A DNA stretch of 39,148 nucleotides from a virus (lineage: Duplodnaviria > Heunggongvirae > Uroviricota > Caudoviricetes), in IMG/VR virus record IMGVR_UViG_2534681836_000019; one strand, 5' to 3'. The notes under the pieces are model-generated. The model saw only the letters and a program-made list of their open reading frames with translations, was not told where the DNA came from and ran no database searches. Positions 23,730-35,415 of this stretch are shown one piece after another. The position numbers and the translations under genes were made by a program. The number at the start of each line of letters is the position of its first letter. Positions within the stretch are counted from its first letter, which is position 1.

Positions 23730-24037
23730 TGCTGGTTCAGAGTTAAAAAAACTATGATTTTTTCATGATGTTACCGTAGTATGTGAGTATCCATCGAATA
23801 GATACCAAGCAAAAAAGCTCCCGAAGGAGCCTTCATTTTCACTTTTTTAAATCCAACGACAGACGGCTGGCATTTAAGTATTGTGAAATATTATCAAATG
23901 TAATCATCATTGATTTACAAAAGATACATTTTGCCCCGAAAGGATTCATGTCAGAAACATCAAAAGATGATGTTCTATACTGGGAACCATGACAACACGG
24001 GCATCTAAAGTGAATATGGTTTGTAATATTGTCTACC

Positions 24038-24250
24038 TCAAAGCGCCACTACATGAACAGCGGCAGGACCTTTAGGTCCGTTCTCAATACCAAATTCAAC
24101 TTCCTGATTCTCAGTTAATGTTTTGAAATCGTTGCTCTGAATTGCTGAGAAATGGACAAACACATCTTTGCTGCCATCTTTCGGCGTGATGAAACCAAAA
24201 CCTTTTTCAGGGTTAAACCATTTCACTAAACCAGTCATTTTGTTAGACAT
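24038..24250 (-). CDS. cspI: Cold shock protein, CspI-like
   Basis: 70-aa [41 protein letters not shown]... with RNP1/RNP2 cold-shock-domain motifs. Confidence 0.9.
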
Positions 24251-24612
24251 AATTATTACCTTTTGAAGAAATTAGCCCTTGGGCAGAATGGTCCGAAAAA
24301 AAATATCAGAGAGAAAAACCAACAAGGAAATCTCAAGAGGTACAAATAATAAAATTATAACAATGACTGCTTCAGATAAATTTGTAACAAACCAGAACAC
24401 CATTAACGCATGATTAACCACCCATAGCAAGGATTACTTTTGTAAAGAAAAACACAGCAATGAAAGAATAGCTTTATTTATTAATAAAACGTGTCATTCT
24501 GATTAAGACCTTTTATCTTACCCTTAAGATTTCAGGAATTTTGGCTCATGGAAGAGTCCTTTTTATTTAAATTTTACATTCCGCGATGTAAATGTTCCGA
24601 TTTAATATTACC

Positions 24613-26640: not shown

Positions 26641-26921
26641 GAGATTGTGGTGCTTTTTGTGGGAGTCATCCACTTACGCACTTTGTTTTGCGATGCCAGC
26701 AGTTAGCTTCTGCTGTGAAACTATTCATGCAGCAAACCTGCACTTCACCACAATGGTTAGCATACTTTTCCTGATTAAGATTTTGCCAAATATGCTAGCC
26801 ATTGTTTCATGTATTGGACCTCCTTACTTTTTATTAAAGAGATCCAATATTCACTACTCTGTCCGTATCTCTACTCAGGCATCAGCCTTCTTCGTTATCG
26901 TATACAGACGAGCGATGAATT

Positions 26922-27137
26922 TTAATCAGTAATGATGACATTTGCTGCTGCAGGACCTTTAGCACCTCTCTCTATAGAGAAGGTAACCTTTTGACCTTCA
27001 AATAAGGTTCGATAATTATCATTCTGAATCGCAGAAAAATGCACAAACACATCTTTACTACCATCAACAGGAGAAATAAAGCCGAAACCTTTATCAGCGT
27101 TAAACCATTTTACTAAACCAGTCATTTTATTTGACAT
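26922..27137 (-). CDS. cspB: Cold shock protein, CspB-like
   Basis: 71-aa [41 protein letters not shown]... with cold-shock-domain motifs. Confidence 0.9.
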
Positions 27138-27435
27138 TCTACATTCCTTAACTTGAGCCTTTCGGCATAAATGGTTTGCATAACAGAAACGACTTCGTAC
27201 TTAATTGGAGAGACTCAAAGAAGGAATAAGTGAATAACACCTGAAATGAGAACTGCTTTAGTAAACTACTTCGTATATCGTCTGTTCTTCAAACCGACGC
27301 AGTCATTAACTCATAGTTGAACATATGAAGCAATGTTTATTTTAGACATCCAGCCACCTTCAATCCTATCAAAAAAGTAGTTTTCTCCAGGAACGTGTGT
27401 ATGGTGCACCAGGTTATCAGTATTAAGGAGTTTTT

Positions 27436-27690
27436 CTGTCCCCTAAAATGACAGGAATTGTCAAAAACTTTGACTACAAAAGCAGCAAAGGTCTTATATT
27501 CCCATCCGATGGCGTATCGATGCCCAGCTTCACGTTTCAGCTCTCAATCTTCGAGATGCAGAAGAAATTACCACAGGATTACGCGTGGAATTTTGCTGGA
27601 TAAATGGTTCGCGTGGACCTTCAACTGCCAATGTTTATCCCGGGATGAGATTCAATATCTCTATTGCCCCATTTAAAGCACAAAAACCCG
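27436..27690 (+). pseudogene. cspF: cspF/cspH-like cold-shock gene, apparently frameshifted and lacking an in-frame stop before the terminator
   Basis: Frame X gives (CTG)[25 protein letters not shown]; the X-1 frame continues [42 protein letters not shown], matching the CspF/CspH family as recalled; junction near 27513. Confidence 0.55.
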
Positions 27691-29974: not shown

Positions 29975-30226
29975 TTATTCTTCTGCAAAAGCTGAAAAGC
30001 CTGCTTTTATTCCGATCTCTTTCAGTGCCTGTAATGAAGTGACAAACTCACCTTCGCGCAAGATAAATCCGTCTGTCACTCGACCATCCACAAAATTAAT
30101 TAACGCAGCCCCATTCTTTCGCAAACACATAATGCGGTAATGACTAACAAAATTTCCATTTTCAACGCACACAGCATAGAGGCCATCTTCACAAAAAATT
30201 TTACGCAGTTCTTCGATGTTCATCAT
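29975..30226 (-). CDS. rem: Rem-like hypothetical protein (83 aa)
   Basis: 83-aa ORF between ydfU-like gene and hokD, same size and position as rem in Qin. Confidence 0.55.
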   Translation of the reverse strand: MMNIEELRKIFCEDGLYAVCVENGNFVSHYRIMCLRKNGAALINFVDGRVTDGFILREGEFVTSLQALKEIGIKAGFSAFAEE

Positions 30227-30345
30227 CAGAATCCTTCCGGATAATTAGCTCTCCCCTTTAAGGGACCATCCCTCTTATCCCTGCGCGCTACTTAAGTATT
30301 TTTGATTCTATTCCGGCACCGTCCAGAACTTCAAACGCGTTGAAA

Positions 30346-30374
30346 ATAAAAACAAAAACCCGCCGAAGCGGGTT
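30346..30374 (-). terminator. Rho-independent terminator of the relB-relE-hokD operon
   Basis: aacccgc-cgaa-gcgggtt hairpin followed on the minus strand by TTTTTGTTTTT, about 70 nt downstream of the hokD stop. Confidence 0.65.
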
Positions 30375-30442
30375 AAGTGCGGGTGCGTTGAGGATGCCTG
30401 CCACATCAGAGGTGGCGAGGGATTTCTCCCTCGCCGGGTTTC

Positions 30443-30598
30443 TTACTCCTCAGGTTCGTAAGCTGTGAAGACAGCGACCTCCGTCTGGCCGGTTCGGATT
30501 CGTACCTCGCAGAGGTCTTTCCTCGTTACCAGTGCCGTCACTATGACGGTTAAACAGATGACGATCAGGGCGATTAACATCGCCTTTTGCTGCTTCAT
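30443..30598 (-). CDS. hokD: Hok-family membrane toxin HokD (RelF)
   Basis: Manual translation: MKQQKAMLIALIVICLTVIVTALVTRKDLCEVRIRTGQTEVAVFTAYEPEE (51 aa); below ORF-track cut-off. Confidence 0.9.
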   Translation of the reverse strand: MKQQKAMLIALIVICLTVIVTALVTRKDLCEVRIRTGQTEVAVFTAYEPEE

Positions 30599-30669
30599 AG
30601 CCTGCTTCTCCTGTCAACGCAAAGCAGAAGTGTCACCTTCGGTGCGAAACAGAGATGTCATGCTTTGGT

Positions 30670-30957
30670 TCAGAGAATGCGTTTGACCGCCTCGCTATAT
30701 ACTTCCGAGCGTTCTCTTTTCCCAACAGAAATCACGAAAACGACAACTTTCTCGTCTATAACCTGGTATACAAGGCGATAGCCTGAAGACCGGAGCTTAA
30801 TCTTGTAACAATCAGGCATACCACGGAGCTTGTTTGCTTCAATCCGGGGTGACTCAAGTACTTCAACCAGCTTCTTTTTCAACTGTTCACGTACCGTCGA
30901 GCCCAGCTTTCGCCATTCCTTTAGTGCCCGCTCGTCAAAATCCAGAAAATACGCCAT
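30670..30957 (-). CDS. relE: mRNA interferase toxin RelE
   Basis: 95-aa ORF MAYFLDFDERALKEWRKLGSTVREQLKKKL..., recognised as E. coli RelE. Confidence 0.95.
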   Translation of the reverse strand: MAYFLDFDERALKEWRKLGSTVREQLKKKLVEVLESPRIEANKLRGMPDCYKIKLRSSGYRLVYQVIDEKVVVFVISVGKRERSEVYSEAVKRIL

Positions 30958-31196
30958 CAGAGTTCATCCAGCGTCACACGTACTGGCTTAGGATTACGAA
31001 GCCGTTCTTTCACTATCTCCACAAGTTCAGCATCTTCATCACTCAGGAGTGTCTGTTTGAACGGCAAGCGTTCATTGTCAGCGATATACTCGAGCATGAG
31101 ACGAAGCGCTTCAGAAGGAGTTACACCCATTTTTTCAAGCGCGGCGTAAGAACGCGCTTTAAGTTCATCGTCAATACGCAGGTTAATGCTACCCAT
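30957..31196 (-). CDS. relB: Antitoxin RelB
   Basis: 79-aa ORF MGSINLRIDDELKARSYAALEKMGVTPSEALRLM..., recognised as RelB; stop overlaps relE start. Confidence 0.95.
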   Translation of the reverse strand: MGSINLRIDDELKARSYAALEKMGVTPSEALRLMLEYIADNERLPFKQTLLSDEDAELVEIVKERLRNPKPVRVTLDEL

Positions 31197-31204
31197 GTCT
31201 TACA

Positions 31205-31265
31205 CCTCTTGTAATTACAAATGTCATTACAAGTATCGCACTACAACATGCTTAGGGCAAGTCAC
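31205..31265 (-). promoter_or_regulatory. relBE promoter/operator region (relO-like inverted repeats)
   Basis: Minus-strand CTTGTAATGACATTTGTAATTACAAG (31208-31233) contains inverted TTGTAAT repeats just upstream of the relB start. Confidence 0.6.
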
Positions 31266-31526
31266 GAAGGAAGTCAGAAAGTAGTCGTAAGAACGGTGAT
31301 CACTGTCCGCTTTGTGCCAGGAGCAGCCATTGCTAAGTCCATCCTGTATTGTGCAGGTCAGCTCGTTTTTAAAGAGTCCGGCCATCATCTTACTGGTACA
31401 GACACCATATACTTTGTGACGGTCAGGCTACATATGCACAACTCAACTTATTCATCTATTTTTTGCTTTAGCATGTCAGTGTTGCTTTCTCGTCGGCGGG
31501 TGAGCGGTGACCTGACCTGTCGATAA
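31221..31526 (+). CDS. Hypothetical ORF (101 aa) in the relB-flxA divergent intergenic region; may be non-coding
   Basis: ORF only; its ATG lies inside the rel operator; no RBS or motif support. Confidence 0.2.
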   Translation: MSLQVSHYNMLRASHEGSQKVVVRTVITVRFVPGAAIAKSILYCAGQLVFKESGHHLTGTDTIYFVTVRLHMHNSTYSSIFCFSMSVLLSRRRVSGDLTCR

Positions 31527-31728: not shown

Positions 31729-32060
31729 ATGTCTGTCACAATTCAGGGAAATACCTCAACCGTTATTTCAAACAACTCCGCCCCGGAAGGAACATCAGAA
31801 ATAGCCAAAATCACAAGACAAATTCAGGTGCTGACTGAAAAGCTTGGGAAAATCTCATCGGAAGAGGGGATGACGACACAGCAGAAAAAAGAATGGCTGC
31901 ATTGGTACAGAAGCAAATTGAAAGCCTCTGGGCTCAACTGGAGCAGTTGTTAAGGCAGCAGGCAGAGAAAAAGAATGAAGACGCGACAGTTCAGCCTGAT
32001 AAAAAAGAAGAGAAAAAAGACGATACAAATACCGCTGGCACCATTGATATTTACGTCTAA
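31729..32060 (+). pseudogene. flxA: flxA, reading frame interrupted by a 1-nt deficit in an A6 run (intact ORF is 31729-31953, 74 aa)
   Basis: Frame 1 MSVTIQGNTSTVISNN...TTQQKKE then shifts; the -1 frame continues MAALVQKQIESLWAQLEQLLRQQAEKKNEDATVQPDKKEEKKDDTNTAGTIDIYV* to 32060; one extra A at 31885-31890 restores a 110-aa product. Confidence 0.65.
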
Positions 32061-33840: not shown

Positions 33841-34206
33841 AAATCCCCCAGAGAATTGTCTGGGGACATTTTAGAATGGTTCAAAGGGGACATTACAGCT
33901 TGGTGTTAACACATCATAGCCCCTCCATTGCCTTCCGGCGGTTATCGGGCTACTATAATGTTGTCTAGGCATTACAGTGGAGCCCTTGGTTGATTGATAA
34001 AAAAATCTCCAGGGGCTTTCTGCTGTATACCGTCCACAAAACGCTTTCGGCATACAGCCTCAAGCGCCCGCAGCTATTCCAACGACTTTCGTATCTGCAA
34101 CAATCCTTTTATTCGCACGGCTAATTCCTCTGGTTAGCTCTTATCGCCTGCAAATAAATTTTTAACCTTTCCGTTTGATTTAAATTCCAGAAATGGAGAC
34201 TTTGTC

Positions 34207-35415
34207 ATGTCTTACAATCGACAGCCTGTCGCAGAAGATCCTATGCAGATATGGGGCGCTGTTGGTGTCCTTCTTATCCTGCTGCTATTCGTTATATGGT
34301 TATTCTTGCCGGAAGTGGTTTACGCCAGCTGCCTGATTCTTCATACCTTATGGGGACTGGTTGACTGGGGACCATTTCATAACTATGCAGCACCACGATA
34401 CAACCTGCTTGCCATGACCGGTAACAACGCCGCCAACATAAGCTATAGCCAGTGGGTTAACGTCATGGAGCAGACCATAGGTATTCTGTGGATGTACCTC
34501 TTACCTGTGACACTCTGGTGTTTGTGGGAGTGGTATCAACATCCGGGACAAAGTCGTTTCACCCGCAGACCAGTAGATATTACCCGACTGCCACACATCT
34601 TTGCTTCGTTGTCCCCTGCTATCGCCCCTGTACTGGCAGATGGTGATCCGGAAAAACTCTTTCATGGTGGCAAACGACCTGAACGGCGGGTTGCTCTCAC
34701 CCCGGAAGCATTTGTCGAGCAGCATACTCTCATCACCAATATGCAGCTCGATGTTGCAGCTGCAAGACGATGTTTCATGGCCCAGTTGGGTAAACCTTTA
34801 ACGTCCTGGAAAGACATGGCACCACATGAAAAAGCGCTCTTTGCCATATTTGGTCTTCAGTATTTCCTGGATGATCGTAAGGCAGCATTAAAGCTCATGG
34901 ATACACTGAACCTCTCATGCAGAATTAAAAGCAAACGGGACAGTGGGAAATTCTGTACCCCTGTTTATTCACTGGCCAAATCAGCTTTCCAGAGAGTGAT
35001 TAAAAGCAACGGAGCACAGCAATGGCTGAAACAACATCGCTACGTCCGCAGTGGGCTGGTCTGGCTGTATGCACATGACCTGCGGCTTACGCCACCCAAC
35101 TGGATTTGGCTGAAAGGCGTGGACAGGACGCTGTTTTATGCATTACACCGCGCCAATACCACGAAAGGATTTATTGAAGGCGCTGGCGTGGTGGCCGTTG
35201 CACGTGCAGAGGCCGAAGCCATGCGTTTTGGTCTTCCCTGCCCTGAACCCTGTGTTGATGAAGCGGTGGAAGGCTTACGGCGGGATATGCTCAGTCTCGG
35301 TCTTATCTGGGATGAACCACAACCAGATCGCGACCGGAAACGCCGCATCCTGACCAACTGGTCCCTCACCGACGACATCCTACCCCGCACACCTGCTACA
35401 GACAACGAATTCTGA
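34207..35415 (+). CDS. trbA: TrbA-like inner membrane protein (DotM/IcmP-like type IVB coupling complex component)
   Basis: 402-aa ORF with N-terminal transmembrane helices; first of three translationally coupled genes whose sizes (402/356/763 aa) match R64 trbABC as recalled. Confidence 0.6.
   Translation: MSYNRQPVAEDPMQIWGAVGVLLILLLFVIWLFLPEVVYASCLILHTLWGLVDWGPFHNYAAPRYNLLAMTGNNAANISYSQWVNVMEQTIGILWMYLLPVTLWCLWEWYQHPGQSRFTRRPVDITRLPHIFASLSPAIAPVLADGDPEKLFHGGKRPERRVALTPEAFVEQHTLITNMQLDVAAARRCFMAQLGKPLTSWKDMAPHEKALFAIFGLQYFLDDRKAALKLMDTLNLSCRIKSKRDSGKFCTPVYSLAKSAFQRVIKSNGAQQWLKQHRYVRSGLVWLYAHDLRLTPPNWIWLKGVDRTLFYALHRANTTKGFIEGAGVVAVARAEAEAMRFGLPCPEPCVDEAVEGLRRDMLSLGLIWDEPQPDRDRKRRILTNWSLTDDILPRTPATDNEF

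What the first reader, a model, noticed from the sequence alone, without database searches (positions are those of the whole stretch)
30346..31265. Complete relB-relE-hokD toxin-antitoxin operon carried inside the prophage
Intact RelB (79 aa), RelE (95 aa) and the 51-aa Hok-family toxin HokD, with an operator-like inverted repeat upstream and a strong terminator downstream. A type II and a type I toxin are co-transcribed. Unlike neighbouring small genes, this module shows no frameshifts, suggesting it is maintained.
Basis: partly seen in the sequence, partly recalled or inferred. Interest (0 to 1): 0.4.

Follow-up and report, generated by a model that had tools for sequence, protein, structure and literature searches.

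The report
Known relB-relE-hokD operon of Qin prophage
This is the long-known relB-relE-hokD (relBEF) operon of the E. coli Qin prophage, with proteins identical to K-12's; it is ordinary, except that its hokD gene lacks the antisense-RNA control region of a complete hok/sok system.

Summary
relB (30957-31196), relE (30670-30957) and hokD (30443-30598) are intact on the minus strand. Their proteins are 100% identical to E. coli K-12 RelB, RelE and HokD. The relO operator matches the published sequence exactly, and a terminator follows hokD. Published northern blots show one relBEF transcript.

"Complete" is wrong for the type I part. Similarity to full hok loci stops 14 nt upstream of the hokD ATG (window 30612). 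The 5' leader, which carries tac, mok, the Sok target and the Sok gene, is absent. Only the SD, the ORF and the 3' fbi/terminator region remain. This agrees with the literature's view of hokD as a rearranged hok locus.

Intactness is not distinctive either: 13 of 15 neighbouring genes compared are also intact.

One side observation may be new. relBE behaves as a ~715-bp unit with fixed ends. It occurs on at least 670 plasmids and in many genera, between unrelated flanks. Its right end is joined again and again to the SD of different leaderless hok genes.

Verdict: already known, low interest.

The parts
31255..31260 (-). -35 hexamer TTGCCC of the relBEF promoter
   Evidence: Sequence match with a 17-nt spacer to GATACT. 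This fits relO covering -10 to +17 (PMC2812701). The assignment is inferred; the simple promoter scan did not reach its threshold here.
31232..31237 (-). -10 hexamer GATACT, overlapped by the operator
   Evidence: PMC2812701 states that the operator overlaps the -10 box.
31209..31232 (-). relO operator: half-sites TTGTAATGACAT (31221-31232) and TTGTAATTACAA (31209-31220), four [A/T]TGT[A/C]A hexads
   Evidence: Repeat finder D1/I1. Exact match to the published half-sites.
30957..31196 (-). relB, RHH antitoxin and autorepressor, 79 aa
   Evidence: 100% identical to K-12. Pfam RelB 1e-32. Full-length match to PDB 4FXE_A.
30670..30957 (-). relE, ribosome-dependent mRNA endonuclease, 95 aa. Its start overlaps the relB stop (TGATG).
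   Evidence: 100% identical to K-12. Full-length matches to PDB 4V7K and 4FXE. K52, K54, R61, R81, R83 and Y87 are present.
30612..30669 (-). 3' tail of the relBE unit, ending in ...CTGCTTTGCGTTGACA. It forms most of the relE-hokD spacer.
   Evidence: Conserved up to this exact end in 26 loci with 17 different right flanks. Plasmid matches stop at 30612.
30596..30616 (-). Junction region TGACAGGAGAAGCAGGCTATG: in-frame TGA 15 nt before the ATG, hokD SD AGGAG (30608-30612), and the start codon
   Evidence: Homology to full hok loci begins at 30612. Coordinates.
30443..30598 (-). hokD (relF), Hok-family membrane toxin, 51 aa
   Evidence: 100% identical to K-12 HokD. Pfam HOK_GEF 1e-23.
30458..30460 (-). 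Tyr47 codon TAC in a TACG context: the site where low-level A-to-I editing of hokD mRNA (Tyr to Cys) has been reported
   Evidence: Sequence. Editing reported in PMC12214031.
30414..30435 (-). 9-bp GC-rich hairpin just after the stop codon
   Evidence: The 30431 difference from K-12 turns a G-U pair into A-U.
30381..30393 (-). fbi element CCUCAACGCACCC, retained without its 5' partner tac
   Evidence: In intact loci L002 and L003 this motif pairs with the 5' GGGUGCUUGAGG in the MFE fold. It is conserved between hokC and hokD.
30346..30374 (-). Intrinsic terminator: stem 30357-30374 plus a U-run
31311..31326 (-). Left boundary of the conserved relBE unit (GCTGCTCCTG|GCACAAAGCGGAC), about 115-130 nt upstream of relB
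   Evidence: Flank divergence in 25 loci with 14 left flanks. Plasmid matches start at 31324-31326.

Best explanation
This is the canonical relBEF operon of the Qin-type prophage.

Shown here or in cited papers: a sigma-70 promoter is overlapped by relO. RelB dimers, tightened by RelE as co-repressor, bind the four hexads and repress transcription. Lon degrades RelB under starvation, which frees RelE, and excess RelE derepresses the operon. RelE cleaves mRNA in the ribosomal A site. relE translation is coupled to relB through the TGATG overlap. Transcription reads on through a 71-nt spacer into hokD and stops at the terminator at 30346-30374, so hokD is the 3' cistron of the same mRNA.

hokD is the 3' two-thirds of a prophage hok/sok locus. 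It keeps the SD, the ORF, the fbi element and the terminator. It has lost the whole 5' leader: tac, ucb, the mok start, the Sok target and the Sok gene. An in-frame TGA sits at -15.

Inferred: with no Sok and no mok coupling, hokD output depends only on relBEF transcription and on how accessible its own SD is. In the predicted fold the start region is buried, so hokD is probably transcribed but translated poorly. It behaves as a passenger toxin gene, not as a self-contained type I system.
For: Protein identity to K-12 is 100%. Annotated relB/relE/hokD lie under the match in 1162 E. coli genomes. Pfam and PDB agree, the catalytic residues are present, and relO is exact. Co-transcription, and the relF part as the most abundant and stable fragment, are reported in PMC3598666. 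For the leader loss: the breakpoint is at 30612; there is no RF01794 match next to hokD, against 104-122 bits in L002-L004. The literature calls hokD inactivated by rearrangement and lacking canonical components (PMC12214031). For the buried start: the MFE fold pairs 30589-30613 with 30451-30475, and the spacer 8-mer pairs with fbi at probability 0.58-0.84.
Against: No tool here measures hokD translation, and the fold is only a prediction. The relE-hokD spacer on its own is no more structured than shuffles (z = +0.6). HokD is toxic when its coding sequence is overexpressed (bioRxiv 10.1101/2025.08.07.668861). The hokD mRNA fragment accumulates under stress. So some regulated expression cannot be excluded.
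Confidence: 0.9

Rival explanations
1. hokD is a working third component. The relBE promoter and RelB/RelE autoregulation have replaced Sok as the control of the Hok toxin. Stress that derepresses relBEF, together with endonucleolytic processing that leaves a stable hokD fragment, would then deliver a membrane toxin along with RelE.
For: The relF fragment accumulates as the most abundant part of the relBEF mRNA after toxin induction. The relBE unit is joined at the same point to at least 6 different leaderless hok alleles in unrelated contexts, and most of those ORFs are intact. The hokD allele has an 8-nt spacer-fbi complementarity that mimics tac-fbi closure; 25 of 5000 shuffles reach it.
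Against: The spacer-fbi pairing is not conserved in the other fusions. The relBE unit also occurs with many non-hok right flanks and with a truncated hok (L016). A leaderless hok persists without relBE (L086). The literature regards hokD as inactivated. No expression data for HokD protein were found.
Confidence: 0.2
2. The locus is a fully complete pair of systems: a type II relBE plus a self-sufficient type I hokD with its own antisense RNA.
For: The Hok ORF is intact and a Hok-type 3' UTR is present. A full-length RF01794 match exists elsewhere in the window, at 33912-34069.
Against: There is no leader or sok next to hokD, and homology stops at -14. The match at 33912-34069 belongs to a different paralogue, the IncI1 pnd-type locus next to trbA, cut by ISEsa1. 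Sok acts by pairing with the leader, and the hokD mRNA has no leader.
Confidence: 0.02

Closest known systems
E. coli K-12 relBEF (relB-relE-hokD/relF) operon in the Qin prophage
   Same: The three proteins are identical, relO is identical, and the gene order and neighbours are the same (ydfV and flxA on one side; rem, ydfU and ydfT on the other). DNA identity is 99.8% over 1151 bp.
   Different: Two substitutions in the hokD 3' UTR (30440, 30431). In this window flxA and cspF are frameshifted, and the dicA/dicC side is replaced by ISEsa1 plus IncI1-plasmid DNA.
hok/sok of plasmid R1 and the full hokD-type loci of lambdoid prophages (e.g. L002, L003 from O157:H7)
   Same: The Hok-family ORF, its SD, the 3' hairpin, the fbi element and the terminator. 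The hokD segment is 98-100% identical to prophage copies.
   Different: The ~160-nt 5' leader is missing: tac, ucb, the mok start, the Sok target and the Sok promoter and gene. It is replaced by the relBE unit from position -14.
relBE-hok fusions on large Enterobacteriaceae plasmids (e.g. L006 Enterobacter pECC3473_01, L011 Klebsiella michiganensis)
   Same: The relBE unit is the same (RelE 100% identical) and ends at the same ...GCGTTGACA, followed directly by a hok SD and ATG.
   Different: The hok alleles are only 28-44% identical to HokD, with unrelated DNA beyond hok. Their predicted folds lack the spacer-fbi pairing.

Membership tests
RelBE type II toxin-antitoxin system | RelB-family ribbon-helix-helix antitoxin encoded first | tested here: met
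   Pfam PF04221 at 1e-32 over 1-79. Full-length match to PDB 4FXE_A, and the N-terminal domain matches 2K29.
RelBE type II toxin-antitoxin system | RelE/ParE-fold toxin carrying the RelE catalytic residues | tested here: met
   PF05016 at 2e-13. Full-length matches to PDB 4V7K and 4FXE. K52, K54, R61, R81, R83 and Y87 are present. That these residues are the catalytic ones comes from my own knowledge of the RelE-ribosome structures; R81 and R83 as toxicity residues are also in PMC3598666.
RelBE type II toxin-antitoxin system | Overlapping antitoxin-toxin genes behind an autoregulated promoter with a RelB operator | tested here: met
   TGATG overlap at 30955-30959. relO is exact at 31209-31232.
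RelBE type II toxin-antitoxin system | Toxin activity neutralised by the antitoxin | not testable with these tools
   Inferred from 100% identity to the experimentally characterised proteins.
[quoted passage not shown] | Hok/Gef-family small membrane toxin ORF | tested here: met
   PF01848 at 1.2e-23. Identical to K-12 HokD.
[quoted passage not shown] | Sok antisense RNA gene and its target in a 5' leader directly upstream of hok | tested here: not met
   No RF01794 match in 30200-31400 at E<=10. Positive controls L002, L003 and L004 score 104-122 bits.
[quoted passage not shown] | mok reading frame starting upstream and running into hok | tested here: not met
   In-frame TGA 15 nt upstream of the hokD ATG, at the junction. 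In L002 the same frame stays open over the aligned codons just upstream of the ATG.
[quoted passage not shown] | 5' tac element pairing with the 3' fbi element (mRNA end-pairing) | tested here: not met
   fbi is present at 30381-30393, but GGGUGCUUGAGG is absent. tac-fbi pairing was verified in L002 and L003. There is only a non-homologous 8-mer complement in the relBE tail.
Qin-type lambdoid prophage | Synteny with Qin late-region and moron genes | tested here: met
   rem, ydfU, ydfT, cspF, cspB, essD, ydfR, rrrQ, rzpQ, ydfV, flxA and ydfW were found in K-12 order.

The most novel reading that the evidence does not exclude
relBE is a discrete ~715-bp unit (window 30612 to ~31326) with fixed ends. 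It sits in many unrelated plasmid, prophage and chromosomal contexts. Its right end has been joined repeatedly, at the same nucleotide just 5' of the hok SD, to at least six different hok alleles that have all lost their Sok/mok leader. That would make 'hok placed under RelBE transcriptional control' a recurrent and possibly selected hybrid type II/type I architecture. Alternatively, it would reveal a specific recombination hot spot between the relBE tail and the hok SD. Under either reading, hokD in Qin would not be a one-off accident.
Probability: 0.3. Interest if true: 0.45.

Novelty: already known. Interest (0 to 1): 0.12.

Why it matters
The locus itself adds nothing new. relBE is the model RelE-family system, and hokD/relF has been known since the 1980s. 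Two points are still useful. First, annotation should not count hokD as a complete type I toxin-antitoxin system. Second, the fixed-ended relBE unit and its repeated fusion to leaderless hok genes suggest a tractable question: how are toxin modules reshuffled, and can a type I toxin be re-wired under type II control?

Tried and rejected
1. Is the RF01794 leader at 33912-34069 the severed 5' half of hokD? Rejected. It is a more diverged paralogue. It runs through to its own ATG before the break, and it is the IncI1 pnd-type locus next to trbA, cut by ISEsa1.

2. Is the spacer-fbi pairing a conserved surrogate for tac? It is not conserved. In L006, L008, L014 and L018 the tail folds locally, and in L011 and L033 it pairs only partly.

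3. Is the relE-hokD spacer a structured element by itself? No; z = +0.6.

4. Is there an empty site for the relBE unit in E. coli? None was found. The flxA/ydfV flank travels with relBE in 1174 of 1282 genomes, and the apparent exception, H130, is an IS insertion.

5. Is the unit a transposon-like cassette? The repeat finder gave only one 13-nt, 85% inverted repeat at the two junctions (I4). By eye I saw no target-site duplication. Unresolved.

6. Is the relBE tail derived from a hok leader? Unlikely. Pantoea chromosomal relBE copies with no hok carry a diverged version of the tail.

7. Bech et al. 1985 (PMC554300) is not held in the paper library. I know Pedersen & Gerdes 1999 only through citations of it.

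Full report
OBSERVATION

Pfam assigns them to RelB (1e-32), the ParE/RelE toxin fold (2e-13) and Hok/Gef (1e-23). A megablast of 30250-31400 against complete E. coli genomes finds the whole stretch in 1162 of 5426 genomes, annotated relB, relE, hokD and ydfV. Against K-12 MG1655 the 1151 bases differ at two positions, 30440 and 30431. Both are in the hokD 3' UTR. All three proteins are 100% identical to K-12's. RelE and RelB match the solved structures 4V7K, 4FXE and 2K29 over their full length. RelE keeps K52, K54, R61, R81, R83 and Y87. The surrounding genes are those of the Qin-type lambdoid prophage: rem, ydfU, ydfT, cspF, cspB, essD, rrrQ and rzpQ on one side, ydfV, flxA and ydfW on the other.

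CONTROL ELEMENTS

The upstream inverted repeat is two adjacent 12-nt units. They are letter for letter the published relO half-sites: TTGTAATGACAT (31221-31232) and TTGTAATTACAA (31209-31220). These hold four [A/T]TGT[A/C]A hexads bound by RelB dimers, with RelE as co-repressor (PMC2812701; coordinates). A -35 TTGCCC (31255-31260) and a -10 GATACT (31232-31237), 17 nt apart, fit the statement that relO overlaps the -10 box. That assignment is my inference. relB and relE overlap as TGATG. Downstream of hokD the 3' UTR forms a 9-bp hairpin (30414-30435) and then a terminator (stem 30357-30374 plus a U-run). The fold energy is -39 kcal/mol, z = -3.9.

CO-TRANSCRIPTION

Co-transcription is established in the literature. 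Probes for relB, relE and relF detect one full-length relBEF mRNA. After toxin induction, the relF part accumulates as the most abundant fragment (PMC3598666).

WHY "COMPLETE" IS WRONG FOR hokD

I searched with the hokD segment alone. In thousands of E. coli genomes a copy 97-100% identical matches only from query position 89, which is window 30612, 14 nt upstream of the ATG. Those copies have no relBE. Plasmids show the same pattern. In three such loci (L002, L003 from O157:H7, and hokC in L004) the Rfam model RF01794 scores 104-122 bits on the hok-sense strand directly upstream of hok. RF01794 is labelled "sok", but in practice it covers the ~157-nt hok leader that is also the Sok template. 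In the window, nothing matches next to hokD even at E<=10. The alignment shows identity starting at AGGAGAAGCAGGCTATG and unrelated sequence before it. Folding the intact loci pairs the 5' GGGUGCUUGAGG (tac) with the 3' CCUCAACGCACCC (fbi). The window keeps fbi (30381-30393) but has no tac. An in-frame TGA at -15 closes the frame that stays open upstream of the ATG in L002, which is the mok-type extension. So hokD here has the SD, the ORF and the 3' UTR of a hok locus. It lacks Sok, mok and the 5' regulatory elements. This agrees with the published view that hokD was inactivated by a rearrangement that removed canonical components (PMC12214031, citing Pedersen & Gerdes 1999).

THE "MAINTAINED" ARGUMENT

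The argument that the module is maintained because it lacks frameshifts is weak. Of 15 K-12 neighbours compared, only flxA and cspF are frameshifted in the window. The hokD segment is also 100% identical in DNA to a leader-bearing prophage copy (H42).

LIKELY MECHANISM

The relBE part works as described for K-12. This is shown for identical proteins and an identical operator, not re-measured here. hokD is transcribed by read-through.

In the predicted fold of the relE-stop-to-terminator RNA, the hokD start region (30589-30613) pairs with 30451-30475. An 8-mer in the spacer, UGCGUUGA (30614-30621), pairs with the fbi core at probability 0.58-0.84. This complementarity is reached in 25 of 5000 shuffles against fbi, and in 281 of 5000 against the whole UTR. 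It is absent or only partial in the other relBE-hok fusions, and the spacer alone is unstructured. I therefore treat it as suggestive only.

My best reading is that hokD is a poorly translated passenger. The rival reading, that it is a Hok toxin re-wired under RelBE control, cannot be excluded.

THE relBE UNIT (SIDE FINDING)

I scanned one genome per species for RelE relatives. In 26 loci from Kluyvera, Enterobacter, Klebsiella, Citrobacter, Pantoea-like and other genera, the DNA is conserved from ...GCACAAAGCGGAC (window ~31311-31326) to exactly ...CTGCTTTGCGTTGACA (window 30612), a span of 694-707 bp. It lies between 14 distinct left flanks and 17 distinct right flanks. At least 670 plasmids carry it, and the matches end at the same coordinates.

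Six right flanks are different hok alleles, 28-44% identical to HokD by tblastn. All are joined just 5' of the SD. A seventh locus (L029) holds a hok 70% identical at the same distance, but its junction was not examined. The DNA beyond hok is unrelated between these loci, and none of the fused hok genes has a leader.

Three further loci fit the picture. In L015 a complete leader abuts the unit in inverted orientation. L016 has a truncated hok. L086 is a leaderless hok that retains only ~30 nt of the relBE tail and has no relBE. Pantoea chromosomal copies have a diverged tail and no hok, so the tail belongs to relBE and not to hok.

I found no empty site. The only terminal repeat reported is a 13-nt imperfect inverted repeat at the two junctions. 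The mechanism of these joins is unresolved. The recent Hok survey analysed coding sequences only, and I found no paper describing this pattern.

VERDICT

This is a correct identification of a textbook locus. One over-statement ("complete") is refuted by test, and one weak inference ("maintained") does not stand. Novelty: already known. Interest: low.

Noticed in passing
window 30612-31326; loci L005-L039: relBE is a ~715-bp unit with fixed ends. It is found between 14 different left and 17 different right flanks across genera, and on at least 670 plasmids. Its right end is joined repeatedly to the SD of different leaderless hok alleles.
   Followed up: partly
window 33912-34069 (-): An orphan hok-family leader (RF01794, 133.5 bits) whose toxin ORF is cut right after the ATG by an ISEsa1-type IS. 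It is the IncI1-plasmid pnd-type locus next to trbA (ORF 34207-35415). So IncI1 plasmid DNA abuts the prophage here.
   Followed up: partly
window 30614-30621 and 30384-30391: The 8-nt spacer motif UGCGUUGA is perfectly complementary to the fbi core of the hokD 3' UTR. The predicted pairing probability is 0.58-0.84, and 25 of 5000 shuffles reach this complementarity. It is not conserved in the other relBE-hok fusions.
   Followed up: yes
window 31729-32060 (+) and 27436-27638 (+): flxA and cspF are each split over two reading frames relative to K-12, so they are frameshift pseudogenes. The other 13 neighbours compared are intact.
   Followed up: yes
window 31221-31526 (+): The annotated ydfV ORF starts inside relO, on the strand opposite the relBEF promoter. 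It crosses the left boundary of the relBE unit and has no Pfam match. It is probably a chance or chimeric ORF.
   Followed up: partly
window 30431 and 30440: These are the only two differences from K-12 in 1151 bp. The change at 30431 converts a G-U pair of the stop-proximal hairpin into A-U.
   Followed up: yes
L086 1190-1400 (Klebsiella plasmid pC706_1): A leaderless hok preceded by only ~30 nt of the relBE tail, with no relBE. It lies next to a divergently oriented GNAT/DUF1778 gene pair. It looks like a deletion derivative of a relBE-hok fusion.
   Followed up: partly
window 24011-24396 and 26906-27298 (-): Two cspA-type thermoregulator 5' UTR matches (Rfam RF01766). The second covers cspB. 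The first covers a csp-family gene that I take to be cspI from the Qin gene order. Both are expected for Qin.
   Followed up: no
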